Assembly (NCBI RefSeq): GCF_026210795.1
Contig: NC_089433.1
Span: forward strand, 5,704,001 to 5,768,000
Length of the DNA stretch: 64,000 nt
Source: Rhizophagus irregularis
Taxonomy: Eukaryota
Direction of reading: 5' to 3'
Position 1 is the stretch's first letter. Every line of letters begins with the position of its first letter. Under the pieces are notes generated by a model that had not been told where the DNA came from, did no database searches, and saw only the letters and a program-made list of their open reading frames with translations. A program made the translations under genes and the position numbers. Below, piece after piece: positions 94 through 50,316 of this stretch.

Positions 94-1032
94 CCACTAC
101 AACGGCATTGAGTGTTTCGCTTTATTTTCTTGCAAAATATCCAGTAAGTAGTAGAATTTGCGGTTGATTTTTCAAAATTTACATCTTTTTATTAATCTTT
201 TTGTAATTCAAAATGAATAGGAAATGCAAGAAAAAGCACGAGCAGAAGTAATCCGTATTCTTGGTAACGAACCAATTATACCAAGTTTAGATCAATTAAA
301 GGTACTATTAAATCATTACAATCATTTATTTGTTCCCACATTTCACGATTTTATTGTATTTCATCCAAAATCATATATATTAATTATATACTGTATGTCT
401 GTATATAACTATATATATATTAGGAATTGAAATATGTCAATGCAATTATTAAAGAAACTTTACGAACCCATCCACCGACACCAATATTAACTGTTAGAAG
501 ATTAAAGAAGCCAATTAAGGTTGGCTCCTACATTTTACCAATAAACTCTACATGTATGATAAATACTTGGAAAATTCATCGTGATCCAAAATATTGGGAA
601 AATCCTAATCAATACAACCCTGAAAGATTCTTATCAAGTGACGAAAAAAGAGACAAATTTGCTTGGATTCCTTTTTCTGCTGGTCCAAGAAATTGGTATA
701 TATAGCAAATACTTTTTTTTTTACAAATATAAAATAATTTTATCATATTTTAAATTTTAAATTTTTCTTAAAACATTTTTATAGTGTCGGACAAAATCTC
801 ACTTTATTACAACAAAGAGTTGTTCTTTCAATGTTCCGTAAGTAAAGTATATTTGTATTGTTTTATTTTGTTCATAGTTAAGTTATTTAATATCATTTCT
901 ATTAAAGTGCTCAGATATAAATGGGTCCTTCCTGAAAATAACGTTAACAAGGACAAAATATTATTAAAGTCTCATTTTTTACTAACTCCCATTGATATAA
1001 AACTTGTGTTTACTGAAAGAATTAATGAATAA
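94..1032 (+). CDS. Cytochrome P450, 3' part (5' end lies outside the window); exons about 94-143, 221-301, 424-695, 785-837, 908-1032
   Basis: ExxR (KETLRTHPP), PERF and heme motif FSAGPRN/CVG split by an intron at 696-784; GT-AG junctions keep the frame. Confidence 0.93.
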
Positions 1033-3483: not shown

Positions 3484-5346
3484 ATGTATCAAGCGATCAT
3501 TTTGGGATCCCTTCTGTTTATAACGCTTTACATTTTAAAGCGTAAGCGTGAACCAGAATTGGTAAGATAATTGATTTAAACAGAATTTTATCGCTTTTTC
3601 TCCTTTTACTCAATTTTATTTTATTTTATTTTCTTAGACCATGCCGCCACTTGTTTCTTACAAATTCCCAATTATTGGCCATACTTTTGATTTTTTTTTA
3701 AATCCCGAAAAATTTCTTAAACAATGTAGAGAAGAAGTTCGTATATCAACGAATTTTTTTTTTTTGGCGTAAAAATTCAATTAACGTTAATTATTAATTA
3801 TATATAATAGTATGGTGATATCTTTTGTCTATATATATGGGGTCAAGTGAGAGTATTTGTTGGTATAGAGATTGCTCGTATTTTTTTTTGCATAAATATA
3901 AAATATTTTATATATTCTAATTTATAAATTCTTTTTAATTACTGCACAAACTTGTAGGAAAAGAACATTTTGGTGAAGTATATTCAAGAGATGATGTGTT
4001 TGATGTTTTAAAAGCATTCAACAAACGATTTCCGATAGATGTATTATGTCCAGATTTGCTGAAAGTTTCACCAGTTGCACCAAAAACACTTAAAGACACG
4101 ATCTTTAGCAAATTAAAACTTTATTCTGATCGTATGCAAAAAAGGGTTTATTTATCAACTCAAAAACATTTTGGAGATTGTGATGAATCAAAAATTTTTT
4201 ATAATCTATTTGAAATTGTAACAAAAATTATTTCTGATCCTATTGCAAATATTATTATTGGTGAAGTAAGTATAGATACTTTTTTTTTATGATACTAGTT
4301 AATTTTGAAAGAAAAAAAGTTTTAAAAGAAAATTACTTCTTTTTATAGGAGGAATCACAACATGAAGAAGTTTTAAATTCATTTGCAAACTTTATAATAG
4401 ATAGCATGATATTTTTAACTATTCCACCATTTCTTGATATAATTTATCCAGGACTTCAAGAATATGTTAATCGTATTCAGATAAGATTAGGATTATATAA
4501 TCCAGCAGTTAAACATCGAAAACCACTCCTTAAACATATAGAAAAGCAAGTATGTAAACGTTTACAAGAGAAAGAAAAATATGGTGACTCTTGGAAACGT
4601 CCTGATGATCATCTTCAAGATCTAATGGAAGAACATGATCCTAATAATATTAGTTGTCCGTATCTTTTAGACAGAATATATCTAATCATTTTTGCATCAA
4701 TTCATACAACGGCAATAGCCATTACAAATGTTATTTTAAGTTTAGCATCAAGACCCGAGTACATGCAAGAATTATATGAAGAACAATTAAAAGTTCATAA
4801 AGAAACGAATGTAAATGGCATAATTCCATTTGAAGCTCTTAGTGATATGAAAAAATTAGATAGTTTTATTAGAGAAACATTAAGATTAAGTGTAAATGTT
4901 GCGGGAATTGACCATCTCGTAAAGAAAGATTATACGTTCTCTAATGGATTGCAAATACCAAAAAATTGTATAACTAGTATTTATATTGATGATGTTTATC
5001 GAGATGAACCAAAATCATTTGAACCATTCAGACATTTAGATATAAATGTAGCATCAAAAGTCACTAAAAATTTTTTGACATTTGGAAATGGTAAACACAC
5101 GTGAGTATATTTATGTATATATGTATTGTAGTACAGTAAGTCAACAACTCAGTTATTATTAAATTATTTAGATGCCCTGGAAGACAACTTGCTGTAAATA
5201 ATATTAAATTTTTTATGCATAACGTTATCTTAAAATATAATTTTCGTACAGTAAGTAGTAAAATTGAAGAAAGCAGAGGAACGGGTTTTACGGCATTACC
5301 AGTTGAAACAAGTACTGCTGGTGTGATTTTTGAAAAGAGGGTTTAA
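3484..5346 (+). CDS. Cytochrome P450, complete; exons 3484-3561, 3638-3736, 3811-3862, about 3958-4265, about 4350-5100, about 5172-5346
   Basis: N-terminal membrane anchor, PPLVSYKFPIIGHT, I-helix FASIHTT, RETLR, FEPFRH, heme motif FGNGKHT/CPG across the last intron. Confidence 0.92.
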
Positions 5347-7766: not shown

Positions 7767-9101
7767 TTAATGATTCACTAATGCTTCGCGCTTTTGTCTG
7801 ACACCATCCTGATACGCAGCTGCTTCACGTTTTTGTCCACCTCCTCCACGATACGGTAATGCTTCACGTTTTTGTCCGCCACCTCCCCGATACGCGGCTG
7901 CTTCACGTTTTTGTCTACCACCTCCACGATAGCATAGCAAACATGCTTTATATCACTTTGACGATCATTTGCCGATCACAAGTTTCATTTTATTAAAAAA
8001 TGATTAAATTATGAAAAAGTGCAAGGCAAAGTAAATGCCTAAATAAGAAAAAAATAAAATATGCCACCTTTTATTGTTGTATAACTTTAAATTAAATAAT
8101 TTATATAATTTTTAATTTTTATATGCAAAATTATTAATATGTGATAATTTGAAGTTTCGGGATAAAAATTAAAGGCCGAAGCCAAATACGCAAAGCCGAA
8201 ACTTGAAATTTTGCATGAACATTCCTTTTATTATATATAATCTGTAAAAAAAATAATGCAAGGTTTTGACCCATAATGCAGGTTTTTTGCTTATAGAGAA
8301 ATTAGCCAATTATTTGTTATTAATATATTTCTAATAAAAAAGATTATTTACATCATTAAAAATAATGAAAAACTTTTAGTTGAAGATGAAGATGATAATA
8401 GTTTAAGTGAAGATAATAATGATGAGAATATTGAAAATAATTTAGAAATAATAGAAAGAAATATAGATAATCTGTTTGAAATATTATACTAAACATGGTT
8501 AAATTATTAATATAATTATTAGTATTTGTATTAATTTTTATGTTTTATATAAATTTTTAATTAAAATTAAAATTCTGTGAAGTTATTTGTAAATTTTAAA
8601 CACTTATTATATTTATTATTGTGTAAAATTGATCTGTCACGACATATGTATTATGTAATAAGATCAAATAAATGATCGGCAAATGATCGGCAAATTTGTG
8701 ATAAAATAGAGATGTTCGCTATGCTCTTCACGATACGGTAATGCTTCGCGTTTTTGTCCGCTACATTCCCAATACGCGGCTGCTTCACATTTTTGTCCAC
8801 CACCTCCGCGATATGGTAATGTCTTGCGTTTTTGCCTGCCACCTCCCCAATACGCAGCTGCTTCACGTTTTTGTCTACCACCTCCTCGATACGGTAAAGC
8901 GTCACGTTTTAGCCCACTCGATACTCTTAAATTATCTGGACTTTTTTCTATATATGACGAAGTATTTTGTAAATTTGAGTATTTAATTTGACTAGCATGA
9001 CGTCTAACAAGATGGTTGTTAGTATTTGGGTAATTGTTTAAAGTTGCACTTTGAACAATTGTGATAATTATTAAAAAAAAAGTAACAAAAATAAGTTTCA
9101 T
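7767..9101 (-). pseudogene. Secreted Kex2-processed repeat-peptide precursor (alpha-factor-like architecture), interrupted by a MITE
   Basis: Signal peptide MKLIFVTFFLIIITIVQSA, pro-region, then 13-aa repeats KR-[E/D]A-[LP/AA]-YRGGG[G/R]Q. Repeats resume at 7930-7767 beyond the insertion and end KREALVNH*. Removing 7931-8725 plus one TSD restores ...ALPYRGGGRQKR in frame. Confidence 0.88.
7931..8725. mobile_element. MITE with 9-bp TSD (Mutator-like) inserted in the peptide-precursor gene
   Basis: Imperfect TIRs AGCATAGCRAACAT...TATCAC...TTTGMCGATCATTTGCCGATCA; TSD CTCCACGAT (7922-7930) and CTTCACGAT (8726-8734). Confidence 0.85.
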
Positions 9102-9228: not shown

Positions 9229-10599
9229 CAGTCAACTCCCTCTATAGTCACTCCCGTTATAGTCACAATCTATCTATAGTCACTATCACACCTATCCTCA
9301 AAAATCTTATATTAAAAAGAACCGTTTATAATCACAGTTATATAAAGAATATATTAAATAACTTGGCATCTAATAATCGTACAAAGATGTATCATAGCTT
9401 GTTAGAATCGTCTCACTGAGACGAATCGAATGGTGGTAGTTTTATCCTTTTCCTTTTGCTATTGTTTACGGCCAGACCACCCATTGCCTCTTATGAGACT
9501 AATCTCGGGTCTGTGTCCTATCATCTTCAATAGGCAACCATTAAACCGAGTACTTAATTCCTCAGGTAACAGCACCATGTAGAAGACATCCCCCATCAAG
9601 CCATTTTAGGCTGATCTGAAGCTAGGTACACGCCGCCTACTCATCCTTAATCCATTGCATGATACTGGTACTCAATTTATTTTACGACCTTTAGAGAGCA
9701 CCTACTTTTATGGAGGACTTTTGACAGGTAACATCAACCATCTAGTACCCTTCCATACCACCATTTTAGGGAGTTTTATCCTTTTCCAATCACTGGCTGA
9801 CGAGTTATTCAACAAAATGTTAAACATCGGCATTATAATATTTCTTGATTTACGTTTACTGCGCCATTTAACATTTTGCTAGATTTCTCGGTACCTAGTG
9901 ATTGTAAAAACACGATTTATAGCTCGTTGGAATCGCCTCATCGAGACGAATCGAATGGTGGTAAGCTCATCTCTCTGTGATCAATATTGACGGAGTTATT
10001 ACTTAAAAACCATTTAATATTTTTTAATTTCGGAAATTGATCTAGTGATTGGATTTCGATGTATCTTATACCATTAGATTCGTCTCATCAAGACGAATCG
10101 AATAGTAGTAAGATCGTCTTTCTAGGATCAATATTGACAGAGTTATTACACAAAAACCATTAATATTTTTTTAATTTCGGAAATTAATCTAGTGATTGGA
10201 TTTCGACGTATTTTATACCATTAGAACCGTCTCATCAAGACGAATCGAATGGCGGTAAGATCGTCTTTCTAGGATCAATATTGACAGAGTTATTACACAA
10301 AAACCATTAATATTTTTTTAATTTCGGAAATTAATCTAGTGATTGGATTTCGACGTATTTTATACCATTAGAACCGTCTCATCAAGACGAATCGAATGGC
10401 GGTAAGATCATCTCTCTACGATTAATATTGGCGAAGTTACGGTACAATAAAGTTTTAAGTATAATTCTGGCTAAAATTATGTTAATTTTTGGCCAGAATT
10501 ATGATATACAAATACAAGAAATTTTTTATATAGTCACATCTCTTTATAATCACCAAATATGGACTGTCCCAAATGTGTGACTATAAAGAGAGTTGACTG
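9229..10599. mobile_element. Tc1/mariner-type non-autonomous element with internal 147-bp tandem repeats
   Basis: TIR CAGTCAACTCYCTYTATAGTCAC, TA on both flanks; internal units at 9935, 10082, 10229 and 10376. Confidence 0.88.
9454..9771. mobile_element. 318-bp GC-richer insert with 16-bp TSD (SINE-like or retrocopy) nested in the mariner-type element
   Basis: AGTTTTATCCTTTTCC duplicated at 9438-9453 and 9772-9787; no TIRs. Confidence 0.7.
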
Positions 10600-11068
10600 T
10601 ATATAACTTATTGTTAAAAAATTATTTGTTTATTAATGCAATGAATGTTTATGGATATTTCATTATAAATTATTTGTCGTAATTAAAATACAATGTCTAA
10701 TTATATTACTAAAAAGTCATTCCATAAAATTTATTTTAAGTTTACATGTTATTGTGAAAATTTGAAATTTTAATTGAAAACTACACGTAATGTTAAAAAT
10801 GATTTAAACTGCAAATGCAGTTTTATTTAATTCATTAATAAGCCAACAATACATGAAAGTTTAAATATTTGTACTGTTTATCAATAATACGTAAATAATT
10901 ATAAATTTATTTAATTTTTCTTTTGTAACGTAAATAAAATTTATTGCAATTAATGGTTTTGAACTATCAAATAATAATAAAATTAATTCATCTCAATTTG
11001 CTGGATATATTACAAGATATTCAGATGTTTGCATAAAATACAAAAATAATCATAATATATGCTCAGAA

Positions 11069-12181
11069 ATGGTTTCAAGTCAACAAGTTAATAATGAATT
11101 AATTTCAATTTTTAAAACTTTTAATAAACAAGAAGAATCAAATTATTTAGATAATTATAGATTAAAAATTGAAACCCCAAATAGTTACATCAAACAATTA
11201 GGAAAAGAATTAATTGCTGATTACAACTATAAATACTTCCCCTCATTACGTAATAAAAGCGAAAAAATAATTTTAACAACAAATAATGACAATTATGTTA
11301 ATGACTATTCAATTTATTTTGATACACTGAAAATGAGCTTAATTCGTTTAGAACAGCTTTTTATTCTCAACGATTTACCACCATTTTATATTTATGAATT
11401 TTTAAAACCTACAAAAAATAAATTTGGTCAAAATATATCAAGTTGGATTAAAAATATAACAGTGATTGATGTAAAGAAAATTAAGCAATTAAAAATATAT
11501 CTCGATGAGTATTTTCAGTTTATATTTGATCGGCCGAAAAATATCTATAAAATTAATAAATTAGCAGTGCCAATTGATTTTTCAGACCAAATTAAACTTG
11601 ACGAGTTTGCAGAATATTTAAGTAGAAATTCAATTGTCGTTTTAGATTTTTTTGATGAAAATCTTCGGTTAGTAAGTAGTGAAGAAGCAAATAACAGTTT
11701 TATTACTTGGTTTAAAGCAATTTATGAAACAAACAGCTATGAAATGCAAAAAATTACAGAATACAGATCAAATATTGAAAATCTTATAAAAAGAATAAAT
11801 GAAATTCATTCAAAATATAAAAAAATAAATTGTAACATAAATAAATTAGGAATAGAAGCAAAAATCGCAAAGTTGGCGTTAAAATTGATTCCTGATTATT
11901 GTGATAATAACGTTAATACTGAAAATAAGCAATGTTTAATTGATTTAGAACAATTAATTATCTGACATGGAATCTCTACGAGTATTGTTTTTGAATATAC
12001 AAAAAAAAATGCTAATCCAATAAATAATGATATTATTAATTGGATAAAAATAATAACTAAATTAGATAAAGAAAAAATTGTTTTTTTGAAAGAATACTTG
12101 GATCTATATTTAGAATACATTATTTATAGAATAAAAGATGATAAAAATATTAATGAGGTCTGGGATAAAAAATCTAAGTAA
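11069..12181 (+). pseudogene. Intronless ORFan of about 370 codons with an internally repeated domain; in-frame TGA at 11963-11965
   Basis: The frame stays open for about 71 codons after the TGA, and that segment aligns with an earlier part of the same protein (LIxLEQL...WIKxIT..D..KI..LKxYLD.Y...I..R). Confidence 0.75.
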
Positions 12182-15681: not shown

Positions 15682-17230
15682 ATGGATTACGCTATATTAA
15701 AACCATTTTTTGATCTATTTTCAAGAACACAAATTCAATCAGTTCTTATAGCTTGGCTGCCTACGAAAATAATGCCATACTTAACAGGGATAATAACAGT
15801 AGACATGTTTGCAATTACTGTTATAGTTTCCAGTCTTTCAACATTAACTTACCTATTTCATTCTTTAATATATGATTATTTAATAAGCCACTCAAACGAC
15901 AAAAATTTAATAACAATTCAGATAGATTATTACAATTTAGGAACATACAATGAAATGAATAAAAATATAATTTATGAATCATTGTCATGGCTAATTTCTG
16001 AGCAAACTAAAAAATTAGAAAAGGGCAAATTTATACTTCATTTAAAATAATAAATACAAACATAAGATACCGAACACGACAATTTCTCCAAAAAACAATA
16101 ATGAAATTACTGTTAAGTTCAAAGAAACACATTTTAACTTAATGTACAAAATTTCAGAAAAAAGTAATAGCCATAATGATAAAAACAAAGGAAGTTATTA
16201 TAACGTCCCATTTGTATCAATAGTTAACGACGATAAACCATCGATATATTTTTCCACCTTAAATAATAAAAAAACATGTGTTGGAGAAATTTTGTTGTTA
16301 TTTAATAATATTACTGAAAATTATTTAGAATTTCAAAGAAAAAATTATGGTCGTTTTAGATATGAAAACAATCAATCACAATGGAAACAAATACAAAAAT
16401 TGACTTCTTGCAGAGGATTTGATAGCATCGCGTTATAAAGAGAGGATCAAGAAAAATTATTAAAAAAAGAATTACACGCTTTTATAAACAATAAACATTT
16501 TTATGAAAAAAATGGGTTACCTTACAAGCGGGGTATACTTTTGTATGGAAAGCCTGGAACTGGAAAAACAAGCTTAGTAAATGCAATTTCAGCATATCTA
16601 TCTCGTGATATTTATTATTTAAACCTTAAAATGATTAAAAACGATAGCGAACTGAGTGCAACATTTAGCGCCATACCTTCTAATCAATTAATTGTTATTG
16701 AAGACGTGGATGCACAATCTACGGTTCTTCATAATAGAAAATTTGAAATAAACAGTATCGATAAATTTGTAAATGCAAAGTATATTGATAATAATGTCCA
16801 AAATTTTACAAGTTCTGATTTCAGTTTATCTGTGTTTTTGGCATGCTTAGATGGTCATTTAATTTCTGAGGGTAATATAATTATAATGACAACTAATCAT
16901 ATTGATTTTCTTGATCCTGCTTGCATTCGGCCAGGTCAAATAGACGTTCATTTTAAACTTGGTTATTGCACTCATTATCAATTGAATAAAATGTTCAAAA
17001 ACAATATTAACGAATCAGGAATTCCTGTCAATGTGTTAAAAAATATTAATGAAAATGTATTGCCACCATGTGAAGTTATGGCATTAATGTCATTGTATCA
17101 AAATGAACAAGAACAGGTTGTTATTGAAAATCTCATTAAAATAGCAAACCAATATAACAATAATCATAAAAATATTTGTAAAATAGAAAATATTACCATT
17201 AAAGATAAGAAAAGAAAATGTTCAATATAA
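15682..17230 (+). pseudogene. BCS1-like AAA+ ATPase, intronless, with a frameshift near 16045 and an in-frame TAA at 16436-16438
   Basis: N-terminal TM segment, PYKRGILLYGKPGTGKTS (Walker A), IVIEDVD (Walker B), MTTNHIDFLDPACIRPGQID. Confidence 0.9.
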
Positions 17231-18503: not shown

Positions 18504-19292
18504 TTAATTGCAGCTACTGTCAATATTAAAATCCAAGGTATAATAAGGCAGAAAATCGTCTACGAAAGAAAATGATGTGTTTATTAATGACGGATCTATT
18601 AAGTATGGATCTGTATATAATGAACTAATATAAGTTTGATCCATAAATAAAGACGTATTTCTATCTATTTCCATAAAATCGCATTGTGATGTCATGTCGA
18701 CATCGATTTCCGGAATATTGAAACTTGTATTCGGCATGTTATTGTTTTTACCAATATTGTTTGATTTAATTTCTAACGAATGAGTCGTCACCGAATCATC
18801 CAAAACATTATTTAGCAAATTTCTTTTATTTGTATTATTTGCAATTTTATTTCGGTAAAGAGATCTAACTGGGGAATATTTATAATTAGGATATTCTATT
18901 AAATGAATTTTCTTTGTAATTTGAAACAATCTAGTCCAAAATTGCGATTCACGCTTTGTAACTTTTTCCCATAAACAAGAAGCAATTGCGGAAGTGTCAC
19001 CAACAGACATTTTTAATCCAATTAAACCTTTTGAAATATTTTTACGATACAAAACCCAAGGATTTTGAGGTCTTGGAATAGTTTTTGATCTTGTAGTATT
19101 TGAGGGAGATAATAATTCTTGCAAATTCAGAATTGTTTTAATGTCACTATAATCATTAATTAATTCGATAATCAACGGTTTTATATTGGTATCTAATTCA
19201 TTTAAATTTATTGAATTGGTTTGATCTCGCACTAAGGATTGTAGTTTTTTGATTTTATCTATTCCCAAATTTTTTTTTGTTTTTGTTAACAT
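18504..19292 (-). CDS. MATA-type HMG-box transcription factor, intronless
   Basis: IPRPQNPWVLYRK...SAIASCLW...FW...H..EYPNYKYSP followed by an acidic tail. Confidence 0.9.
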   Translation of the reverse strand: MLTKTKKNLGIDKIKKLQSLVRDQTNSINLNELDTNIKPLIIELINDYSDIKTILNLQELLSPSNTTRSKTIPRPQNPWVLYRKNISKGLIGLKMSVGDTSAIASCLWEKVTKRESQFWTRLFQITKKIHLIEYPNYKYSPVRSLYRNKIANNTNKRNLLNNVLDDSVTTHSLEIKSNNIGKNNNMPNTSFNIPEIDVDMTSQCDFMEIDRNTSLFMDQTYISSLYTDPYLIDPSLINTSFSFVDDFLPYYTLDFNIDSSCN

Positions 19293-19623
19293 AATTAATA
19301 AAAAAATGTCCGTGTAAATTTCTTTATATACTTAATTATTGGCGTTAAATAAAACTCAAATACACATATTTAGTTAATATTAATGCATACTTAATATGCG
19401 TATTATTTATTGTACTAACAATACATAAAATAAAAAAAATTTATTTTATCACATCAATTATATCAAATTAAGTTTGTTTTTATATGAACTAACATTAAAT
19501 GATTAAAAAAATAAAATAATGTTATCTGTTATATGAAAACGCCCAAAATCGAAGTTATTAAATAACCTGTAAATAGGATATTGTAAAGATACAATAATAT
19601 CTATATTAAAAATATTGATGGAT

Positions 19624-20163
19624 TTAAGGAAAATATATTTCTAAAGGACCTTCAATGCACATTAATTTCATTCGATTTGCTCCATAAACTAAATTAAAAT
19701 GTTGACGTCAACTTTTATTACGAGAATCTATTTATTGCATTTAAATTCAATTATTATTCTTACCTTCAAACTTAGTATCAAAAATCAAGGTTGTATTTGT
19801 TGGATCCTTAATGCCAGATGGCAAAATTTTTAATGCCGTATCATTGAAATTTTTCACTGCAAAAGGACAACTGAATTCGCTACAAAAATCTAAATTTTCA
19901 ATAAAACTGTTACCATTGTAGGAATATGAAAAGAGAATTGTCGCCCCTTGCTGTATTTCAATATAATTAAATCCTGCATATTTTGCAAAAAACCATTTTC
20001 CAATTATAATTGGATACGGAACGAAACTCAACTCGGCTAATTTTACCGGATAGTCAAAATCAGAACAATTTCTATATCCACTCAATTTATCAATAACCTG
20101 GCGATCATATAATACCATTGCATATGTTAAATTTATAAATAAAAATAATAAAATTAAATTCAT
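19624..20163 (-). CDS. Secreted ML (MD-2-related lipid recognition, NPC2-like) domain protein; exons 20163-19764 and 19688-19624
   Basis: Signal peptide, YRNC, F.PYPIIIGK, DFC...SCP; splicing at GAAG|GTAAG...TTTAG adds VYGANRMKLMCIEGPLEIYFP*, supplying the last Cys. Confidence 0.8.
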
Positions 20164-22299
20164 TTTTTTTATCGTTCACTATGCATTTGTTTTTAAGTAT
20201 TTATATAAATTAAGTTTTTTACGCCTTAAAAAATTTATAAAAAACACGCGTATTACTACCATCATATAATATTTTAAATTTAATTATAATTTTTGTACAA
20301 CCATTTGTAAATGTAATGCTAAGATTTTTGCACGTAGTAAATTTTAATAATCGCACAACAGTCTAGTTCTAATAGATTAATTATTTTGATTTGTACTATT
20401 GACTTTACCCAAGTTAATATCACATTACGTCAATTACTCACGCTTTAATCGTTATATAGTATAAATTATAAATAACAATACTAAATTTATAAAATCAATG
20501 GCGGAATTAATTATTGTTCATTTTATAAGCGTTTGTGTTAATTAAATAAAAAATAAATCAGCCCATAATTTCTTTTACGAAAATGTAACCTAAGTTGCGC
20601 TTGGATGACAAATTTCTAAGGGGAAGGCACACAAATAAATGTATACAAATAAATAATAAAATGAACTGAGTTAAGTTATAATTTAAGTACAATCTAAGAT
20701 TACGTGTTTCTTATTAAAATTTTTATATAAAATTGCATTTTAATTTTTAGAAAAATAGTATTGCAATAATACGCGTAACAAAAAACATTTAATAATCCAT
20801 AATTAATACGTAGAATTAATTTTATTCTTTTACTTTAAATTTTTGACTTTTATAATTATTTTTGGGTCCTAAATATTTCATGTAACAATTATGCTTAAAT
20901 ATGAATTTCAGATTTAAACAGAATATAATTAAAACCAACATTGAATTATTATTATCCCAAAAATTTATACTAATTTTGCCCAAACTCAAAGTACCAGCGA
21001 AATTATATGAAATTCAATCCAGATGAAAATCCGCTAAGGATCGAAGCACTAATTATAACAAGGAGTAATAATTCAATACTTATATAATAATACTGAAAAA
21101 ATTAATTTATTTACGCAAATAATATTTCTGGTTGCAAAAATAAATTCATTGTTTGATCGTTACCTTTTTTTATAATATTCCAATCAACAAACGCAAACTA
21201 ATAAACAAAAAAAATAACGAAATTATTATTATTAATGTATTTCAATAGAACACAATTTAAAAAACGTCAATAAGAAGTAAATATATTGTTGCATTACATT
21301 TTCTTAATACTTTAAATATAAATTATATTAATAATTTCGTATAATCGAAATCAACTTAAAATTCTATGAATTATATATTTTATTACTAATATTAAATAAT
21401 TCATCCTTTTAATTAAATACTACCTCGCTGCAAGTAACATTGTAAAAACATGGGAAAAAATTTATTGACAACCATATGGATATTCGTTAAATTTTCTGTG
21501 TTATGTTTCACATGATTAATATGCCGGTAGTTGGGTATATATGGTCTCATATATGGTGCATTGGTACCCAGACTAAAGTACTATCATTATTTTTGTTTGT
21601 CTGGGTCCCATACTTCCATTTGTAGCCTACATAGTTATTTTTTATAATCAAAATAACAATACCAACAAACCGTGATTAATATTGTTTAATAAAACAACTT
21701 AAAATGAATTGCTATTAATAACAAATCTTTTTATAAATAGAAACCACATAATCTAATAAAATGATATGTAATCTTTATCATGAATAAAATTAATAAATAA
21801 AATTCATTTATCAACGTTACTGCAATTGTTGAAGCTTCATATACATATTAATTTTACACCGTGAAAAAAAATTTTGTAAATAACACAAAACCAAGTTAGT
21901 ATTAAGATAGAATTATTTGATTTTATTAAAATTACCACCATTTATAGCGTATGACATTTTATGTCAATATAAATTTATACAATTTAATATGAGAATAAGT
22001 CTTACTAATATTAGTTGCTACAGCAAAATTTTTTTATTTACACCATTGATAAAAACTAATAATTGTTTAATTATAAAAGTATGGTTTAATTAAATTAAAT
22101 TGATGATTTTTTTTGGTAAATTGCAACTATAATCAAAAATAACTTAAGATGGGCGTGGTTGACAATTATATTTATAACTTCTTTTTCTAACATTAAATTC
22201 TCATAATCGTATAAAGTCACATGCCGGGTACCCGGGTATACTTTTCCAAAATATGTATACGGGGTAGGGTACACAGATGCGTCACGATCATCGTTAATT

Positions 22300-23606: not shown

Positions 23607-24419
23607 CTAATTGTTTATTAAAGTAGGATCGATGTAAGAAAAAGTAGGGTCTATTTCCATGATGTCCAAAAATGCTTGATCATTTAATAATGAATCATAC
23701 AAATTTTGATCGTTAATTTTATTATCACATCCGTCTATCGGATCAAAAAGGATTGAATCCGTCTGAAATAGATTTTCATCCAACATTTCGATATCAAATT
23801 CATAATTATAATCAGTTTTTGTATCGGTTATGTCATTGAACATAAGTGAATCTTGACAAAAATTTTCTTCCCCTTTTTTTATATTCAAATCAGAAACATC
23901 CATATCAAAACTGCTTGTATCCATAGGAATGTTTGTTAAATTCGGTTTTAGATTAGGAATTGTGTTTTTGGTTTTTGTATTTTTTAATTTTTTCCTTTTA
24001 TCAGTAAAAGGATGGTATTTGTAATTAGGGTACTCTATTGCGTGTATTTCTTTTGTGACTAAACACAAATCACTCCAAAATTGTTTTTCTTCTTCAGATC
24101 TGATGCTCCATAAATAAGAAGCGATCCCTGACGTTTCACCAACAGTCATGTGTAAGCCTTTTGATACATTTTTACGAAACAAGTCCCATTTATTTTGAGC
24201 TCTTGGAATAGATTTTGTTCTAGTTACGTTAGACGATGAAAATAACTCTTGTAAATTTAATATTGTTTTAAAGTTTTCATATTTATTAATAAAATCGAAG
24301 ATCAATCGTTTTATTTTAGGTTCTTTTATATTTAAATCTAATAATTTTATTTGATCTTTCACAGGAGTACCGATACCTTGTATTTTTTTAATATATTCTT
24401 CAGTATTTTTAACAACCAT
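23607..24419 (-). CDS. MATA-type HMG-box transcription factor, paralog of 18504-19292 (true ATG probably 24419)
   Basis: IPRAQNKWDLFRK...SGIASYLW...EYPNYKYHP; shares the upstream KTILNLQEL motif with its paralog. Confidence 0.9.
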   Translation of the reverse strand: MVVKNTEEYIKKIQGIGTPVKDQIKLLDLNIKEPKIKRLIFDFINKYENFKTILNLQELFSSSNVTRTKSIPRAQNKWDLFRKNVSKGLHMTVGETSGIASYLWSIRSEEEKQFWSDLCLVTKEIHAIEYPNYKYHPFTDKRKKLKNTKTKNTIPNLKPNLTNIPMDTSSFDMDVSDLNIKKGEENFCQDSLMFNDITDTKTDYNYEFDIEMLDENLFQTDSILFDPIDGCDNKINDQNLYDSLLNDQAFLDIMEIDPTFSYIDPTLINN

Positions 24420-25639
24420 TAAGCAAAAAAATAGAGACAATATCTTCTTATATACAAAATATAAAACACTACAAAAACCTGTAGTATTATTTAAATATTT
24501 TGACGTACTTTAACTTTATTCAAAATTATTGTATGTACGCATTATTTAACAATTAATGTTTACAAGAATACAATTAATATTAGAATAAAATAATAATCAT
24601 AATTGTTAACTAGTGGATTGGCGTATCTAAGTATAAACGATAACAAACTGTAAAAGATTTGTTATTTATAAAGTCTCGTTTATTATGTATTGTTATTGAG
24701 TATAATTCGTATTGTAAATAAGTGATATACATTGTTATATGTTTATTAGCCAGACGGATTTATTAATTGTTTTAAATCTATTAGGTATTTGGTTTTTTCA
24801 CAATTTAATTTAAAATTTTTTTCGTATTGTTTAATTGAATAGGTTATATTTTTCAATTTTATATCTATATACAGTACAACAATTTTAATCGTTTTTTATT
24901 GTTTTTACAAAATTTAGCTTTTACCCATGGTTTGATGCTACATAAATCACTAAATATTTATTTATGATATCTATTCTAAATTACGTACAATGATTTAACA
25001 AGATATGCTGCGTACTAATCAATTATAATAATAAACAAGATTTTCTTATTTCGATTTTTTTTTAATTTGTTTGCATCTGATTATGTAAAAATATTATTTT
25101 TTTAAAAATATCATCATTGTTATTATTATTTGGTTTGATATATTTAAGAATGAATTACGAGGGTAAATTGTTTAAATAAAATGGTTCTCTGAACGGACAA
25201 AAAATATATTTAGCGCATTAAAATATAATATATGTTTGGCTAAAGAATTCATTGTTTAAGTTAATTTGTTTGACTTATAGAAAATATTTAAAATTGTAAT
25301 TTTCTATTAGCTTTTCAAATACATTTAATGAAGTCGCTAGGGTTTTTTACTTAGTGTTTGTATTCTTTAATTGACTTTGAGTAACTTGAAATTATTTGAA
25401 TGAACTTAATATTTGCAATAAATTTAGTAATTTTATTTTTGCATTTATTTTTATGCTTCTCTAATTATCATTTTCGATCTTAACTAGATTACAATTAAGA
25501 TCAATAACATTTTATGTTTTTATAAATAATATTGTATTATGTACAGTATTATTATATGTTATGTATTATTTAAGTTTAAATGTATTGTTAAAATTTAATT
25601 TATATAATAAGAAAAATACTGAGTAATTGGATTTTAAAA

Positions 25640-34278: not shown

Positions 34279-37200
34279 TTAATTTATCTTACCCACCTGG
34301 TTCACAACTACTGTAAAATCCAGGATTTCTTTACCAAACAAAATATACTCTTTAACACCCTCCAAGCCTTCATATCTTCTATACATGTTTTCAGGGTATT
34401 GTAAAATTTCTTCTTGCTTCTCTCTACAAAAATTAGAATCAGTTCTTTTCTTATCTTTTTTGTTAATCCCATAATTCTTTTCTATTATTTTCAATTTTTC
34501 GCAACGAGGTAACCAAATATGTTTCTTTGTTTCATCCATAATATATTGTAAAATCTTCGTTCCCAATTCTATTATCTTCAAATTGTTATTTATTCCCAAG
34601 ATACTTCCAATAAAGTTATACAATTGAATCGGGAAAACGCCTTTAATTAAATCTACAAAATTAAACTTATTATCCCTAAATTTTGGAAAAAAGATATCAA
34701 GTTTTTTAATATTTGTTAGTATTTGCACTTCATCAAAAGTAGCCCATATTCCTTTAATAAAGTAACCATAGTATCTATTGTTTGTCCTATTATCTGCTTT
34801 AAAATTTTTCTATTGTAACTACATGTCCACACATGATAGATTAAAGGTTTCTTTTTTCTTGTGACAAAATACACATCTAAAGTTCCGGTAAATATCATAC
34901 GAAGATTTCTTCATTTGTTCAATTGTTGGAATTTCTTCTATCAAACGTTGTATCTTCATTCTTTTTTGTTTACATATAAAATTATCAGTTTTAAAAGTTG
35001 TATCACCCTCTATTTGGAATCCAATATATGCAAAAACAATTTCCCATTTAACATCTAATATTCTATATCTCCAATTTCTATTCAGATTAAAAAATTTTTC
35101 CAATCCTTATATTCTAGTCAGAAGTCTAATAAACCGTCTTAAATTCATCTCTACCACGTAATTATTCCATAAGACTGGGAATTTATAGTGTTCTGTATTG
35201 TATTTAACTAAAGTGTTAGATAGTTTATCTTCTATTTCGTAGCAATCTTTAATTTCTTTATCCATTGTGTTATGTAATTTATTATCTGAGTGAGACTCTA
35301 CTTTAATTACATCTATCTGTTGTGATAATTCATCTAAAATTTCTTTTATATTAAACCATATGGCATTATTTTTGTCAAATTTTAATAGATCCTTTGTAGT
35401 TATTGTCTCCCATCTATTAGTTAGATACCTATAGTTTTTAATTACATTTTGACTGTCTGTATATATTTTATAGTTCTTATCATCCTGTATCATTAATAGT
35501 GCAGTAAAGAAAGCCATAGTCTCTGCTTTTGTTGAAGTCAACCAATGTTCTACTGTCAAAAAGTATTTATCTATGAGATTATCATTTTCGTCATATATCA
35601 TAACCCCAAAAATTGACTTAATATATTCTGTCTTGTTTCTCTTAACTGATCCATCTATATATATAGATATATTCTTTGAATTATTTAACGCTATCCTATC
35701 CTTAATGCAATATTGTATCTACTTCTTTTTTCCAGATTTTTGTTGACATTATCTGTTTTATCTCATCTATCATCATATAGAATCAGGTCTTTATTATCTA
35801 GTCTTTGTTGTATAATATTATATCTAAATGCACTATCGTATCTAAGTATCTCATCATAGAAATTAACACTGACCCCTTCATAATAATAAGTACAATTTTG
35901 TAATCTTTTTGAATGATGTTGTTTATTCCATCTATATGGTGATAATAAAAATACCCTTTCTATATGTTCCACGATTAAACAATTACTTTTAATTTCTCCT
36001 TTGAATACATCTGCATTAATTATCCCTAACTCACAACCTTTACACTTCCTTAGGATTATATTTTTTTCATAATCATCTGTCAAGTTTTCAAAATGATTAA
36101 AAAATACTACATTATTATCCCTATCTATTTTAATAATTCTTCCAAAGATTGTTCAATTTTGTGAAACTCCTCTAGTCATTTTTGAAACAACTGTTGCTCC
36201 TTTTTCTGGTAAAACTGTGGTCGGCAATAGAATCGTCCCTTTTAAATTATAAACTTCGTCTACAAATAAAATTTGTTCAACAATATTTGGTTTAATTCTG
36301 TAACTTATCCTAGAGACTGCTAAATCTGCCAATATATTCTCATAAAGTTTTCCATTCTTTTTTGACATTCTTTTTGTATTTAAAAGTTTAACAAATCTCT
36401 TCATTTCTAACTCTTCAATTGATAGTAAATATTTTTTATCCAGGGTAGTGATTTGATCCACAAAGATTAAATTATTATCTTGTAATGTCTTAAAATTCTT
36501 AATGTATACTCCATTTGATACAACGTCTCTAATCAATGTTGGTCCACCTTCTACATTAAATTTAATCATAATATTATCATTTCTTGCAAATTTAAAATTA
36601 TTTTCTATTAAAAGTTTTATGTTGTTTAAGATAAAATGGAATTTAAATCCAATATTTTTAATCTGCTTAATTTTATGAATTAACTTTTCATCAATAACAT
36701 ATATCGGATGGTTTTCTAAAAGCAATTGTTGTTGTATGTTGATAAATCTAACTTCCATTATTTTTCCCAGAATATCTGTATCATTAACCTGTAAAACAAA
36801 GTTTGTAATTTTGGCTTATTTTTGATTGGCAACTAAGTTATTCAAATTATAAATAAAATGAGTTTCTAAAATCGCGTTAGGTGCAGTTTTCGCAAATTTC
36901 AACCTATTTTTAATAAATGATCTGAAAGGAGCCATTAATCTTTCTAATATTCGTTCTTCTATGACATATAGTTGACTTCTATATTCAACTATTGGAATAA
37001 TTAGCATATTGAAAAAATAAATCATCATCTTATCAGTAATCCCTTTTCTACAAGATATATTCTTTATTATTGCTTTGATTTCGTTCCTGATTTGTTGTTC
37101 TACATGTCTATTATCATTAAAGGCATTTATCCAAACTCCTAAAAATCGTGATGATTGGTTGCAAGCTGTTGGCTTACTAACTTCTATTTCATCCTCTCCA

Positions 37201-40016
37201 AATTTAATTTTAACTACACTTTCTAAAGGCTTCTTTTTACTAACATTTTTCCTAAGGAGTAATTCTGATTTTTGCTTATTAATTTTTATGTCATTTAATC
37301 TATAGAAAGAATCAGCTATTTTTAAAATTCGTTCTAAATTTAATTTGTTGTTTGTGATAAATCCCGTATCATCCATATAAGCACATTCTGGAAATGTAAC
37401 TAATCTAGAGCGATACACATTTTCGTATACATCCAAATATTCTTTTGCTTCCATTCGAAATCCAAGATTTGTATTTCTTATTCTTGCTAGTAAGGGGTCG
37501 TAATATATTATCCAAAGCAATGGTGATATTATTTCACCTTGATCAATCCCTGTTAACATATCAAAAGGCTCGGTCAATCCTGTTGGAGTAAAGACTTGAT
37601 TCGTCCTATTTGTGAACAATCCTGTCAGAATTTGTGTTATTCTCTTTGGCATTTTTATTCTTTCGAGCGCCTTTCTTAGCATTGGTATATTAATTCTATC
37701 GTAAGCCTTAGACATATCCAACATAAGAAACCACATTTTTTTTTTATTTTGTTCTGCATAGTTGATAATTTCATTAACTATCCTTAAAGGTTCAAAAGTT
37801 GATTTCTTTGGGAGTCCTGCAAATTGGTATCCTTTTAAAATATCGTTAGTGGTAAAAATTTTAGAAAGTCTATTTGTTAGTATTTTAACAAAAAATTTCC
37901 TTGCAGTTTCTAAAAGTGTAATTGGTCGTGTATTGTTCAAGTCGTATTGCCATGGCTTGGGTTTTGGTATCGGATATATATGAGCACGAAGTCAATCTTT
38001 TGGTAATGTTCCTGTTTCTAATATTTCGTTAAATATTTCTTGAAGGATTTCTTTTAAGGGTATCAGAGTAAGCTTTATATCTTCATAAGAAATTCCTGTT
38101 GGACCATTTGCTTTTTTTCCTGGTAACATTTTTCCTATCTCAATTATTTCTTCCAAAGTTATAGGAGCTAAAACACTATCATATGTTGATTCAGATAATT
38201 CTTCTTTTGGCCTATATTCATCAATCCATTCAGCTGGAATTTCTTTTTCGCAATTTATAGATCCTGCACAATTCTGGAAATGATTTGCCACTAACTTTTT
38301 AATTTCTCCTTCATTCGTTACTAAAATATCTTCTCCATCTTTATCTTGCACTATTAACCTATCTATATTAATTTTTTTGAATTCCCTTTCCATAACATTA
38401 TCGATCATATGTCTTTGATTGTATTCTAAATCCTGTTGTCGCTTAGCTATTGCTTCCATAATCTTTTGTTCTTTCCTCTTTATCATCTCAGTATTCAAAA
38501 ATATATATGCTATAGAATATAGTTCTTTCATTTCCTTCAAATATGTATACTTAAGAATTTTTCTAAAGTTATAACTTAACACATAAAATTCATTATTAAT
38601 TTCTAAGGCTTTAATCATAGAGCGTAAATTTTTGATTATAATTTTCCAATTGTCTTTAATCATTGCAAATTTTTTATCTTTTTTTAGACTCCTTCTAATG
38701 TAAACTATATATCTATAAAATCTATATTCCAATGTATTTTTGATATCTTGATCTTCTTTTTCAAAAGATATTTTAATTTCGCTATGTTTTATATGGCTTT
38801 TCTTTGTTATAGAAATCACATGGTTATAAATATTCCATTTCTCTTCTATATTACTAGGTTTATAATTTTTTAACCTATTTTCTAATTCCTTAGCAGCTGT
38901 GTCAGTGATCATCTGTTTATCATCATCGTTTAATTCCTCATAGTAATATTTTATTCTATAAGATCTTTTTATTTTGGTTGGTAGTGATGGTTGTGAAATT
39001 ATAATTCTTCTGTTTAATCTAACATATATTAGCTTATGGTCAGTATCCATCCTATTATATTCTACTATATTTGTTTTTATTACTGCATTATAAAGATTAT
39101 TTGTCATCCATATATAATCAATACGAGAGAATGTGGCATAATTGCTAAATGTGCTAAAGCGTTCCATTAGTTGCTGATCATCTATTTCTAAGGAATCTTT
39201 ATGTACATCTATAAAATCATGGTTTTCCAGATATTTAAAAATACTAAGTTGATTGTCTATTCTAACGCCTCTATTTTTTAATTTTTCATATTTAGCATAT
39301 CTAAGGTTGAAATCTCCTAATAGCATTGTCTGATATTGATTCCTTCGTGTATCTTTAATCATATTTATCACTAATTGATTAATAGTTTGTTGTAAATTCC
39401 TTGCCTCAGTTGAATTACCACTTTTATTGTATATTGATATTATTGATAATTTGTTGTGTTTGCTAAAATTAAGATTTATTTCTAATATTCTTCCCATATG
39501 ATTTTGAACTTTGGTTACGTGATTTGCTATATTATTTTTAATAAAGACTAAGAGTCCTGTACTATTAATATTGGTATTATCTATTGTTCCAAACATCGTA
39601 TAATTTTTGTTAATTCCAACTTCTTGCATTAAAAATTTTCCATATTTAATATTAATTTTTGTTTCAGTAACCGCTAAAACATCAAAATTATATTTCGTTA
39701 ACACATCTTTAATATTCATCATTTTTAATTTTGTCATTCCTCTAATATTAAGAGTTCCCATATTGAAAAACGCTTTTGTATTATTTACTACATTTGTTTG
39801 ATTAATGTTATCTTCTAATTCCTCATTCAAAATATTATCATTATTATTATTATTAATAGTATTATTATTTTTATTGTTCTTTTTTCTTTTAATTCTTTTT
39901 TTGTAATTACGTAAATGAACAGGATCGTCACTTTTTCTTTTTTCATTATTGCTAGTTAGGGGGGAGTTATATATATTCAATTGATTTGAAATATTAGTAT
40001 TTTGGTTGTCTATCAT
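34279..40016 (-). pseudogene. LINE ORF2 polyprotein with several stops and frameshifts
   Basis: APE motifs TLNIRG, VTETK, LGDFN, RIDYIW, TDH; RT motifs RPITLLE, LDMSKAYD, GIDQG, YMDD, FLGVW; RNase H motifs IYIDGS, KAE, IYTDSQ, KVESHS; CVFC...HVWTC. Confidence 0.93.
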
Positions 40017-41718
40017 AATTAAATGTTGTTGTTTGTTGAAATTGAAGCATTGTTATCCCCCTTAATAACAGTGCTTTTTTGTTTTTTATTTGTGTTATTT
40101 TCTTGATTATCATATATTTGTTCAAATTTAGTACTCATATTTTGTAACATGTCCATCATTTTTTTCATTGTATCATCAGCTTGGTTCATTCGATTTGAAA
40201 GAATATAAACATTATTAGCAGCGTTACTTTCTGAACTGCTGCTTTCTTCATTTCTAGTACGTTTGTTATTACTATTAAAAACTACTCCTCCTCTTTTTTT
40301 ACTTTGATTTTGATTTGTATTTTTTGTTGTATCTTTAAGATTTGGGTTACTATGAACCTTAATCAAATTAAGCTCATTTCTCATCGCCGCTTGTTCTTTA
40401 TACATACAATCCATCATATCTTTAATTTTTCCAAAGTCATTTTTAATATCCTGTAAGTTATTGTTAGTCTGTCTATGATACCATTCTTCTTTTTCTTTAT
40501 CTTTCATATGTATTGAACCTCCTTTCTGAGTACCATGCAAAACATCACGTGATCTTACATTTGGCCGCGTTTTAGGTAGTTCATCCCATTCATGCATTCC
40601 TACTTCATTCATAATAAAATCTTTTTCATCATCAAAAGAATTTCTATTATCATCATCACCTCCATATAAATCATGATTTATATTGTTTCTATTCCAAGAT
40701 CTATCTACATACCTACCATTCTGATTACCATCTCGCGCATTATCAGCATAATAATCTCTTTTTCTAAATTTTCTATTACCCTGTGCTACCATATGAGCAT
40801 ATGTAGCAGGGTTACTATAATTGTTTGCTCTATTTCTTGTAAAACGATTTTGACGAATCTCTTTAATCTGTCTAAAATATTCATTCTTTCTCATTGGTCT
40901 TGTACGAGGGGGCATATAATCACAGTCTCTTATATAATGGCCTGTATATCCACATCTAAAACATGACTGCACACTGGGATCTGACCATTCAGTCTGTTTG
41001 TTTCTTACTAAAAAAATTTTTTGAGTAGCAGCAACCATCGCTACTTCGTCTTTAAAATATACATAAGTATACTTTTGTGTATCATTAGTATATGTATTCC
41101 GAGGAATATAAAATTCTACAACGCTATGATGATCTATAAATTTTTTAAATTCTACAGCCTGTGCATTAGGGGGGAGTCCATTTAACTTCATACAAAATTG
41201 CTTAAGTCCTTCTTTAATATTTTTATCCATTAAAAATGGAGTAACATATAACATTTCGCCATAGACCCAAAGCACGTGATTATCATAAAATCGATGAACA
41301 CTATTAGCATCTTTGAAGGTAATATAAACTACTTGGCGATTTGGTGCATATGCATGAGGCCTTCAAGAATAACATTTCTCTTCTTCTAATTCACTATATT
41401 TACGCATAAAGGGTTTAATTATAGTAGTAGTCAAACGAAGTGATGCATTAAATACTTGTATGACCTTATCTTGCGAATTTCCATTATTTTGTTTTTGTCG
41501 TATACGATTTGTTATAATCTCTTCAAAAAAATAATCTATACCATCACATCGATAAGGAGTTTCTTGTAAATCTTTCCATGTTTGTTGAGAGATTAATGTT
41601 GCTTGTAAAGAAATTCCTGTAATAATCTTATTAACTTTTTTTTGGCTATCATTCATTTGTGTAACTGTTCCTTCTGGAACTTTTTAAGTTATAATTTGAA
41701 CTTGAAGACTAATAATAT

Positions 41719-49599: not shown

Positions 49600-50316
49600 A
49601 ATTTACAAAAAATTGAATCTTCGTTATATATAATGAAATTTTTTTGTAAATATAAATACATATATACAAATACATATCAATAAATTAATAATACGACTAA
49701 TAATTTAATAAAAACAAAAAAAATAATTAATTTTTTTTGATCATAATAACATTAATCGTAATACTTATTATAATACAATTAAACAAATAATTTGTAATAA
49801 GAATACATTATTAAGTATAATTTAAGTAGAGACAATTATCGATTTACATTTTAGTATATATAATACATATTAATTAATTATAATACAACACAATAATTCA
49901 ATGAAATGAAAGAAATTGAAATACTTTGAAAATATAATAGAAATATAACATAATTTTAGTATAAATTACTAAAATACAATTTAGCAACAACTACACATTA
50001 CGGTGTAAAATTTATTATAAATACGATAATGATTTAAATTCTAGTAATTTAATAATAATACGATAAAATAATTCAATGAAATGAAAGAAATTAGTTTTTT
50101 TTTTTGAAAAAAAGATAAAATTTAAAATTAGTTAGTAATACTTATTAAATACGATTAAACAATTAATCAAGTGACAAAAATTAAACTTCAATACATAATA
50201 AAATAAAATTAAATACGATTATTTATTTAATTACAATAATACTGAAAAGTTTTATTTATTTTTTCAATACTGGCATTAAAATATATTTATGTATATATAG
50301 GTCACATAAATTTACA

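What the first reader, a model, noticed from the sequence alone, without database searches (positions are those of the whole stretch)
7767..9101. Alpha-factor-like multicopy peptide precursor whose two spacer types converge on one heptapeptide, YRGGG[G/R]Q
Seen: after removing the MITE, the gene encodes a signal peptide, a pro-region and 8 repeats plus a stub, alternating KR-EA-LP-YRGGGxQ and KR-EA-AA-Y(R/W)GGGxQ. The ORF track shows only the first half. Known: Kex2 cuts after KR, Kex1 trims the KR, and Ste13-type dipeptidyl aminopeptidases remove X-Ala and X-Pro dipeptides, as in ascomycete alpha-pheromones. Inference: EA-LP and EA-AA are both exactly two removable dipeptides, so two different spacers yield the same 7-mer. 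That suggests selection for a processed signalling peptide (pheromone or symbiosis effector) in a lineage with no peptide pheromone known to me. It does not obviously resemble the KR-separated SP7-type repeats.
Basis: partly seen in the sequence, partly recalled or inferred. Interest (0 to 1): 0.88.

Follow-up and report, generated by a model that had tools for sequence, protein, structure and literature searches.

The report
Transposon-broken peptide precursor in mycorrhizal fungus
A transposon-interrupted, likely dead gene of the root-symbiotic fungus Rhizophagus irregularis belongs to a small family of precursors predicted to be secreted and cut, like yeast mating pheromone, into seven-residue Tyr-Arg peptides; that design is already reported in this fungus, this peptide family was not found in print, and its likely signalling role is untested.

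Summary
The anatomy is real. The minus-strand gene has a hydrophobic leader, a pro-region and eight 13-residue KR-spacer-core units plus a stub. A 795-bp inverted-repeat element with a 9-bp target duplication splits unit 5. The copy is decaying: only 3 of 7 unsplit units are clean, and 9 of 12 amino-acid changes are C>T/G>A. The Arg variant may also be decay. Relatives support processing: nine different four-residue spacers all keep Ala or Pro at positions 2 and 4. A spacer-blind scan gave X-Pro-X-Pro in 18 of 18 matches in AT-rich loci (three related genes) and 0 of 30 elsewhere. Cores differ by lineage (YRGGGGQ, YRFSGSQ, YRFPASQ). The class is published: Kex2-processed repeat proteins with Ste13 spacers were reported in R. 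irregularis in 2019, and published members already converge on one peptide (YGY) from several spacers. This heptapeptide family was not found in print. Many copies are broken. One unexpected result: precursor genes in another likely mycorrhizal fungus sit beside homologues of the window's intronless orphan genes, suggesting a shared, possibly mobile gene island. No viral marker was found. Verdict: new member of a known kind; this copy is a likely pseudogene; function untested.

The parts
9045..9101 (-). Predicted signal peptide (residues 1-19)
   Evidence: 11-residue hydropathy 3.4 from residue 3, at most 0.0 after residue 22; same leader shape in 5 of 5 relatives examined. No signal-peptide predictor was run.
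8910..9044 (-). Pro-region with an extra RR-HA site (RR-EA in the paralogues)
8871..8909 (-). Unit 1: KR-DALP-YRGGGRQ (clean)
8832..8870 (-). Unit 2: KR-EAAA-YWGGGRQ (Arg to Trp, a CpG C>T change)
8793..8831 (-). Unit 3: KR-KTLP-YRGGGGQ (spacer decayed; followed by KC)
8754..8792 (-). Unit 4: KC-EAAA-YWECSGQ (cleavage site and core decayed)
8726..8753 (-). 5' part of unit 5, ending in one copy of the 9-bp target duplication (8726-8734)
7931..8725 (.). 795-bp non-autonomous DNA transposon-like insert, 21.5% GC, with terminal inverted repeats. The 9-bp duplication suggests the Mutator/MULE type (TSD length recalled). It puts a stop codon at 8664-8666.
7911..7930 (-). 3' part of unit 5, beginning with the second copy of the target duplication (7922-7930)
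7833..7910 (-). Units 6 and 7: KR-EAAA-YRGGGGQ and KR-EALP-YRGGGGQ (clean, but cut off from the start codon)
7794..7832 (-). Unit 8: KR-EAAA-YQDGVRQ (decayed)
7767..7793 (-). Stub KR-EALVNH and the original stop codon
8664..9101 (-). Reading frame as it stands today: 145 codons from Met, ending inside the insert
10934..12181 (+). Neighbouring intronless orphan gene with one in-frame stop; a close homologue lies next to the family's precursor gene in locus L001
   Evidence: 67.7% identity over 418 aa, E 5e-159; no intron-sized gap, and 81 synonymous versus 88 non-synonymous single-difference codons
26754..27859 (.). Two small Cys/His-rich ORFs whose homologues flank family precursor genes in L001 and in L012/L026/L037
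   Evidence: 29% over 145 aa, E 5e-10; 33% over 51 aa, E 7e-5; shared C/H motif

Best explanation
This is a transposon-interrupted, decaying and likely dead copy of a Kex2-processed repeat protein gene of Rhizophagus irregularis, whose intact relatives are predicted to be secreted and trimmed by Kex2, Kex1 and a Ste13-type dipeptidyl aminopeptidase into several copies of a short unmodified Tyr-Arg peptide (ancestrally likely YRGGGGQ) that likely serves as a diffusible signal. Shown by sequence: leader, pro-region, repeat units, insert, decay, homologues. Inferred from alpha-factor biochemistry: cleavage after KR, removal of the C-terminal KR, and removal of X-Ala/X-Pro dipeptides until Tyr-Arg stops the enzyme. 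Inferred more weakly: the peptide acts on a fungal receptor (self, kin or mate recognition), because the processing frame is conserved while the core differs by lineage and the N-terminus is set exactly. The family appears to turn over by birth and death, and a short intact paralogue with the same core (P0004) may make this copy dispensable.
For: Nine distinct four-residue spacers have only Ala or Pro at positions 2 and 4 but six different residues at position 3; a two-residue spacer EA also occurs (P0005). Spacer-blind metagenome scan: 18 of 18 matches in 8 AT-rich loci are X-Pro-X-Pro, against 0 of 30 in the other 30 metagenome loci and 0 of 2 in viral loci. Intact members: P0004 (R. irregularis, 74 aa) and P0012/P0014. 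In L012 the three cores are identical in protein while differing at synonymous sites. Decay here: 9 of 12 non-synonymous changes are C>T/G>A against 22% expected, p 1.5e-4, consistent with the CpG methylation reported in this species (PMC8647823 passages). Other broken members: P0002 (same insert), P0017 and P0018 (frameshifted), L001/L005/L010 (frameshifted), L022/L025 (fragment). No DUF3328 hit among the 37 window ORFs scanned.
Against: No expression or peptide data were obtained. The 8 metagenome loci are only three genes, 84-93% alike in DNA, so they count as one or two independent events, and their organism is inferred, not named. No insert-free full-length copy of this exact gene was found (P0001 stops at the first repeat). 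The decay tally leaves out the tied G/R column, rests on a majority of only 7 units, and also found 15 synonymous differences, so some variation predates decay. Nothing tested speaks to a receptor; Halary 2013 found an STE3 orthologue but no peptide pheromone gene (PMC3834313 passages). The DUF3328 scan covered only 37 of the 55 stop-to-stop ORFs of 90 aa or more, and would miss spliced genes.
Confidence: 0.62

Rival explanations
1. The peptides are processed as predicted but are structural or chemically modified products (Tyr cross-linking in the wall or spore, or RiPP-like cyclisation), not receptor ligands.
For: Every core has Tyr at or near its start, and most are Gly-rich. Le Marquer 2019 notes the Tyr richness and raises cyclisation. 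Two P450 fragments lie at 424-705 and 4349-5104.
Against: No DUF3328 hit in the window ORFs scanned. No P450 homologue was seen beside the precursors in L001, L022 or L037. Le Marquer states that Ste13 signatures are absent from Rep1 and from cyclic-peptide precursors.
Confidence: 0.15
2. The precursor genes are cargo of a large mobile or virus-derived gene island of mycorrhizal fungi, which spreads, reshuffles and silences them; the peptide may serve the element.
For: Precursor genes at two unlinked loci of another organism are flanked by homologues of three window ORFs, in a different order and orientation. In 30 control loci only 1 of 2852 ORFs gave a weak hit. The neighbours are intronless where tested, lie in 18-27% GC sequence, and several carry single in-frame stops. 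R. irregularis is known to hold virus-derived regions (PMC10640383).
Against: No viral or transposase marker among these ORFs (Pfam, PHROGs, NCBIfam). No relative locus in IMG/VR in 5 protein scans or in prokaryote genomes. The published 1.5-Mb viral region is 36.6% GC, and its supplement lacks the repeat motif. Ordinary synteny with local rearrangement also fits.
Confidence: 0.15
3. The window's copy is still a working, shortened gene: the 145-codon frame is made and would release YRGGGRQ and YWGGGRQ.
For: The leader and pro-region are open and differ at only 4 of 71 residues from P0001. Units 1 and 2 keep their KR sites and spacers.
Against: Units 3 and 4 are damaged. The other R. irregularis copy with the insert has lost even the first KR (KC) and carries different damage (P0002). 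The mutation spectrum is that of deamination.
Confidence: 0.12
4. The protein acts uncut as a repeat effector or wall protein, as SP7 was described to do.
For: SP7 has KR-flanked repeats and was described as acting as a native protein (PMC5293756 passage).
Against: The strict Ala/Pro rule at spacer positions 2 and 4, with Ala and Pro interchanged, has no purpose in an uncut protein.
Confidence: 0.06

Closest known systems
KEX2-processed repeat proteins (KEPs) with STE13 signature in Rhizophagus irregularis (Le Marquer 2019, PMC6339444; Umemura 2020, PMC7329392)
   Same: Same species, leader, KR-separated repeats, X-Ala/X-Pro spacers close to those of yeast, Tyr-containing cores.
   Different: This copy is interrupted and decayed. 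Whether the YR heptapeptide family is among their entries could not be seen: Le Marquer's table is on an external site, and Umemura's table lists accessions without sequences.
RiSP618 and RiSP734 (Kamel 2017, PMC5293756, Table S1C)
   Same: Several spacers (EA, DA, DAEA, DAEAEA, DAEPEA) converge on one Tyr peptide after KR.
   Different: Their core is the tripeptide YGY, and they are reported as expressed in planta. No YRGGG protein is in that table.
Ascomycete alpha-pheromone precursors (MF-alpha)
   Same: Prepro-leader, KR, X-Ala/X-Pro spacers, multiple copies, lineage-specific core.
   Different: No MF_alpha or MF_alpha_N Pfam match. The core is 7 residues with no Trp-x-Trp or Cys pair. No receptor or mating link is shown. 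An Atlas hit to an MF-alpha cluster at 0.75 is below the tool's lead threshold.
Dikaritin-type RiPP precursors (ustiloxin, asperipin)
   Same: Leader, Kex2 sites, Tyr in the core.
   Different: No DUF3328 gene detected nearby; Ste13 spacers present.
SP7 family of R. irregularis
   Same: Secreted, with KR-flanked repeats.
   Different: Different repeat motifs by the paper's description; not compared by alignment here.

Membership tests
KEP (KEX2-processed repeat protein) | N-terminal signal peptide, no other membrane segment | tested here: met
   Hydropathy only; SignalP not available
KEP (KEX2-processed repeat protein) | Repeated near-identical motifs separated by KR/RR/KK | tested here: met
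   8 of 9 unit boundaries are KR, one is KC
KEP (KEX2-processed repeat protein) | Intact, expressed reading frame | tested here: not met
   For this copy: 795-bp insert with a stop codon and decayed units. Relatives P0004 and P0012 are intact; expression not tested.
KEP with STE13 signature | X-Ala/X-Pro dipeptides after the Kex2 site | tested here: met
   7 of 8 units here (unit 3 is KTLP); all distinct spacers in relatives
KEP with STE13 signature | Peptides actually released in vivo | not testable with these tools
   Needs peptidomics
Ascomycete alpha-pheromone precursor | Sequence similarity to MF_alpha or known pheromone cores | tested here: not met
   No Pfam family for the window ORF, P0003, P0004, P0005 or P0012
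Ascomycete alpha-pheromone precursor | Ste2-type receptor and mating-type-dependent action | not testable with these tools
   No genome held; Halary 2013 reports only an STE3 orthologue
Dikaritin-type RiPP | DUF3328 (UstYa) gene next to the precursor | tested here: not met
   None in the 37 window ORFs scanned, nor in six neighbour ORFs of L001, L022 and L037; spliced genes could be missed
MITE / non-autonomous MULE (the insert) | Terminal inverted repeats and target duplication | tested here: met
   14-bp ends, 9-bp duplication; the MULE assignment rests on the recalled TSD length
MITE / non-autonomous MULE (the insert) | High copy number in the genome | not testable with these tools
   No second full copy in the window or in 38 loci; no genome held
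Giant endogenous viral element (flanking island) | Nucleocytoviricota marker genes (PolB, RNA polymerase, capsid, VLTF3) | tested here: inconclusive
   None among the ORFs scanned, but only 64 kb is in view, broken remnants would be missed, and both fold models were unusable

The most novel reading that the evidence does not exclude
The YR-x-x-[G/A]-x-Q heptapeptides are the missing peptide pheromones or kin-recognition signals of arbuscular mycorrhizal fungi: one processing frame with a lineage-specific core, carried and reshuffled on a mobile, intronless and possibly virus-derived gene island, so that strains gain and lose signal alleles as copies are inserted, frameshifted or silenced.
Probability: 0.12. 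Interest if true: 0.85.

Novelty: new member of a known kind. Interest (0 to 1): 0.42.

Why it matters
No peptide pheromone is known in arbuscular mycorrhizal fungi (Halary 2013 found none; Le Marquer 2019 proposed KEPs as candidates). This family gives cheap, exactly defined candidates with a built-in specificity control: YRGGGGQ and GGYRGGAAQ from R. irregularis against YRFSGSQ, YRYSGSQ and YRFPASQ from a relative. The window's own copy matters mainly as a record of turnover. The shared orphan-gene neighbourhood is the less expected result, and it can be settled with public chromosome-level genomes.

Tried and rejected
No whole genome is held, so copy number, processing enzymes and element abundance were not tested. 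Expression was not examined. The first metagenome scan with an alignment found no relative among 400 stretches. IMG/VR: the peptide pattern gave 2 GC-rich chance matches; five protein scans gave no locus (one search reported 1 related stretch of 14 but no locus). The prokaryote genome scan was negative. Metagenome loci could not be extended. Seven HMMER hits beyond the first homologue search were P0006-P0012; six of them (P0006-P0011) are unrelated compositional matches and were dropped. AlphaFold models of two neighbour proteins were unusable (pLDDT 36 and 31), so no fold search was run. The Atlas gave only sub-threshold leads for P0004 and nothing for the long neighbour. The window self-tblastx was mostly low-complexity noise and is used only for its strongest pairs. 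A recalled name for large AMF elements ('Voyagers') found no matching paper. Earlier scan notes: nothing by sequence or place; the eight notes concern other fungi and were not used. Rejected: chance or low-complexity artefact, alpha-pheromone family membership, and identity with the published 1.5-Mb viral region (GC content).

Full report
1. Observation. The gene lies on the minus strand, from ATG 9101 to the stop at 7767. Both halves are arrays of 39-bp units with a 78-bp alternation. Between them sits a 795-bp insert (7931-8725, 21.5% GC). Its ends are 14-bp inverted repeats with one mismatch, extending to about 75 bp at 78%, and it is flanked by a 9-bp target duplication with one mismatch. 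The insert splits unit 5 and stops the frame after 145 codons. Without it the gene would be 531 nt, a whole number of codons. A two-KR pattern that leaves the spacer free matches twice in the window and never in 100 shuffles.

2. The copy is decaying. Of the 7 unsplit units, 3 are clean (units 1, 6, 7), and units 6 and 7 lie behind the insert's stop. Against the column majority, leaving out the tied G/R column, there are 12 non-synonymous and 15 synonymous differences. Nine of the 12 are C>T or G>A, where 22% would be expected (binomial p 1.5e-4), and five of them fall in CpG. CpG methylation of repeats and of 18% of genes is reported in this species (PMC8647823, passages). The Gly/Arg position is tied 4 to 4. 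Arg needs one G>A change, and P0002 and P0004 have Gly, so YRGGGGQ is the likely ancestral core. This last step is inference.

3. Organism. Three of five window ORFs looked up are in the protein collection letter for letter, and the named cluster mates of one are R. irregularis proteins, one called MATA-HMG. The named homologues of the gene are also R. irregularis.

4. Family. Three homologue searches and one HMMER search gave a small family. P0001 is the same gene's 5' end, 4 differences in 71 residues, ending at the first repeat. P0002 is the same gene in another R. irregularis record, also running into the insert. P0004 is an intact 74-residue R. irregularis protein with spacers EADP, EAEP and EAEA before YRGGGGQ, YRGGGGQ and YRGGGA. 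P0005 is partial, with EA and EAEA before GGYRGGAAQ. P0012-P0014 are intact, with EPEP and EPMP before YRFSGSQ. P0003, P0015, P0017 and P0018 form a paralogue with the same pro-region; P0017's repeats match the window's repeats read one base out of frame (48% over 56 residues, E 4e-11), so it is frameshifted. No insert-free full-length copy of the window's gene was found.

5. Test of the processing idea. A metagenome scan fixed QKR, YR, [G/A] and QKR but left the four spacer codons free. It returned 38 loci. In the 8 AT-rich loci all 18 matches have X-Pro-X-Pro spacers; in the other 30 loci, and in 2 viral loci, none of 32 matches has two X-Ala/X-Pro dipeptides. The 8 loci are three genes, 84-93% alike, so this is one or two independent events, not 18. 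Across the family, nine distinct four-residue spacers (the decayed KTLP left out) have only Ala or Pro at positions 2 and 4, and six residues at position 3. That is the known specificity of Ste13-type dipeptidyl aminopeptidases (PMC6339444). The three metagenome genes are likely from another mycorrhizal fungus: 27-32% GC, 78% DNA identity to a window gene, and a shared repeat. One of the three is intact, one is frameshifted and one is a fragment.

6. Mechanism. Shown: leader, pro-region, KR sites, spacers, cores, insert, decay and relatives. Inferred from yeast alpha-factor: signal cleavage, Kex2 cut after KR, Kex1 trimming, and dipeptide removal that halts at Tyr-Arg. Inferred more weakly: a diffusible signal read by a fungal receptor, because the frame and the exact N-terminus are conserved while the core differs by lineage. 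I put the whole statement at 0.62: about 0.9 for a KEP-type gene, 0.85 for this copy being dead, and about even odds for signalling as such against structural, modified or host-directed roles. The rival confidences are not exclusive of one another.

7. Neighbourhood. Locus L001 carries, 2.3 kb from its precursor gene, a 443-codon ORF that is 67.7% identical over 418 residues to the window ORF starting 1.8 kb from the window's precursor (E 5e-159). The pair aligns without intron-sized gaps and shows 81 synonymous to 88 non-synonymous single-difference codons, so it was a real gene; the window copy has one stop. A second L001 ORF and a small ORF just upstream of the precursor in L012/L026/L037 match two Cys/His-rich ORFs at window 26.8-27.9 kb. 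In 30 control loci 1 of 2852 ORFs gave a weak hit. Order and orientation differ between the organisms, and several long window ORFs carry single stops. This looks like a shared pool of orphan genes that moves and decays together. A viral or transposon origin could not be shown: no marker in Pfam, PHROGs or NCBIfam, no relative locus in IMG/VR or prokaryote genomes, and unusable fold models. The published 1.5-Mb viral region of R. irregularis is GC-richer (PMC10640383, parts 1-3 of 5 read), and its supplement lacks the repeat motif. Plain synteny remains possible.

8. What is known. Le Marquer 2019 (PMC6339444; passages, section 18, supplements searched) counts 12 KEPs in R. irregularis, says most carry yeast-like Ste13 signatures and are Tyr-rich, and raises a pheromone or hormone role. 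Its sequence table is on an external site that I could not see, and it may hold this family. Umemura 2020 (PMC7329392; passages and supplement searches) lists Rhizophagus KEP accessions without sequences. Kamel 2017 (PMC5293756; passages, section 12, supplement searches) lists RiSP618 and RiSP734, in which several spacers converge on YGY. Its R. irregularis table has one unrelated RGGG; of 20 RGGG places in the Gigaspora table I saw 2, both unrelated; motif figures are not held. A full-text search for YRGGG found 21 papers, 20 listed, none about fungal peptides by title or abstract. A 2020-onward search for KEPs in AM fungi gave one review (listing only). Halary 2013 (PMC3834313, passages) found an STE3 orthologue and no peptide pheromone gene; Mateus 2020 (PMC7490403, passages) saw no upregulated pheromone gene. 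PMC13533422 and PMC5751038 were searched for passages and added nothing needed here. The 9-bp duplication as a MULE trait and the 'BCS1-like' and 'ML-like' labels are recalled, not from a call.

9. Verdict. A real but broken gene, a new member of a known kind. What is left of value is a defined heptapeptide family with lineage-specific cores, ready for direct assay, and an unexplained shared gene neighbourhood. Interest 0.42.

Noticed in passing
P0002 versus window 7931-8725: In the other R. irregularis copy the frame runs into the opposite end of the same insert, and does so after unit 3 instead of unit 5. Either the insert's interior was inverted between its terminal repeats and two units were lost, or the element hit the same 9-mer twice. 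An assembly error is also possible.
   Followed up: partly
window 18504-19331, 23607-24509, 49150-49602: Three HMG-box ORFs within 64 kb (two of them below the Pfam cut-off); a cluster mate is named MATA-HMG. A pheromone-like precursor near MATA-HMG genes may be chance, but is worth a genome-wide check.
   Followed up: partly
window 10934-12178, 16046-17227, 50185-51681, 51678-52232: Long intronless-looking ORFs each broken by a single stop, including an AAA ATPase: the orphan-gene island seems to be decaying as a block.
   Followed up: partly
window 19747-20175: ORF with a hydrophobic leader and ML-domain-like look (recalled; no Pfam hit). One public gene model (P0021) fuses it to the neighbouring HMG gene and drops the leader, probably a mis-annotation.
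   Followed up: no
window 34279-41683: Decayed non-LTR retrotransposon: zinc knuckle, endonuclease, reverse transcriptase and RNase H with in-frame stops.
   Followed up: no
window 43561-46174: Broken TNP-like (P-element-type) transposase.
   Followed up: no
window 9355-10450 and 55252-56327; L022 1-160: A 147-bp tandem repeat just upstream of the precursor gene, related to a 327-bp tandem repeat at 55-56 kb and to the DNA just upstream of the precursor fragment in L022.
   Followed up: no
window 424-705 and 3939-5104: Two cytochrome P450 gene pieces, the second ending 2.7 kb beyond the precursor's stop codon; not seen next to the precursors in the metagenome loci.
   Followed up: partly
L022 351-700 and L037 5443-5642: The L022 precursor is a leaderless fragment whose last unit runs straight into a repeat also present in L037 (83% identity): another copy cut by a mobile element.
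   Followed up: no
L001 2500-3378; L022 2937-3482: Intronless phosphodiesterase/nucleotide pyrophosphatase and SWIRM-domain ORFs beside family precursors; no homologue in the window.
   Followed up: partly
window pro-region, residues 33-36 (about 8994-9005): An extra RR-HA site, RR-EA in the paralogues P0003, P0015, P0017 and P0018, suggests that a roughly 28-residue pro-peptide is also released with a trimmed N-terminus.
   Followed up: no
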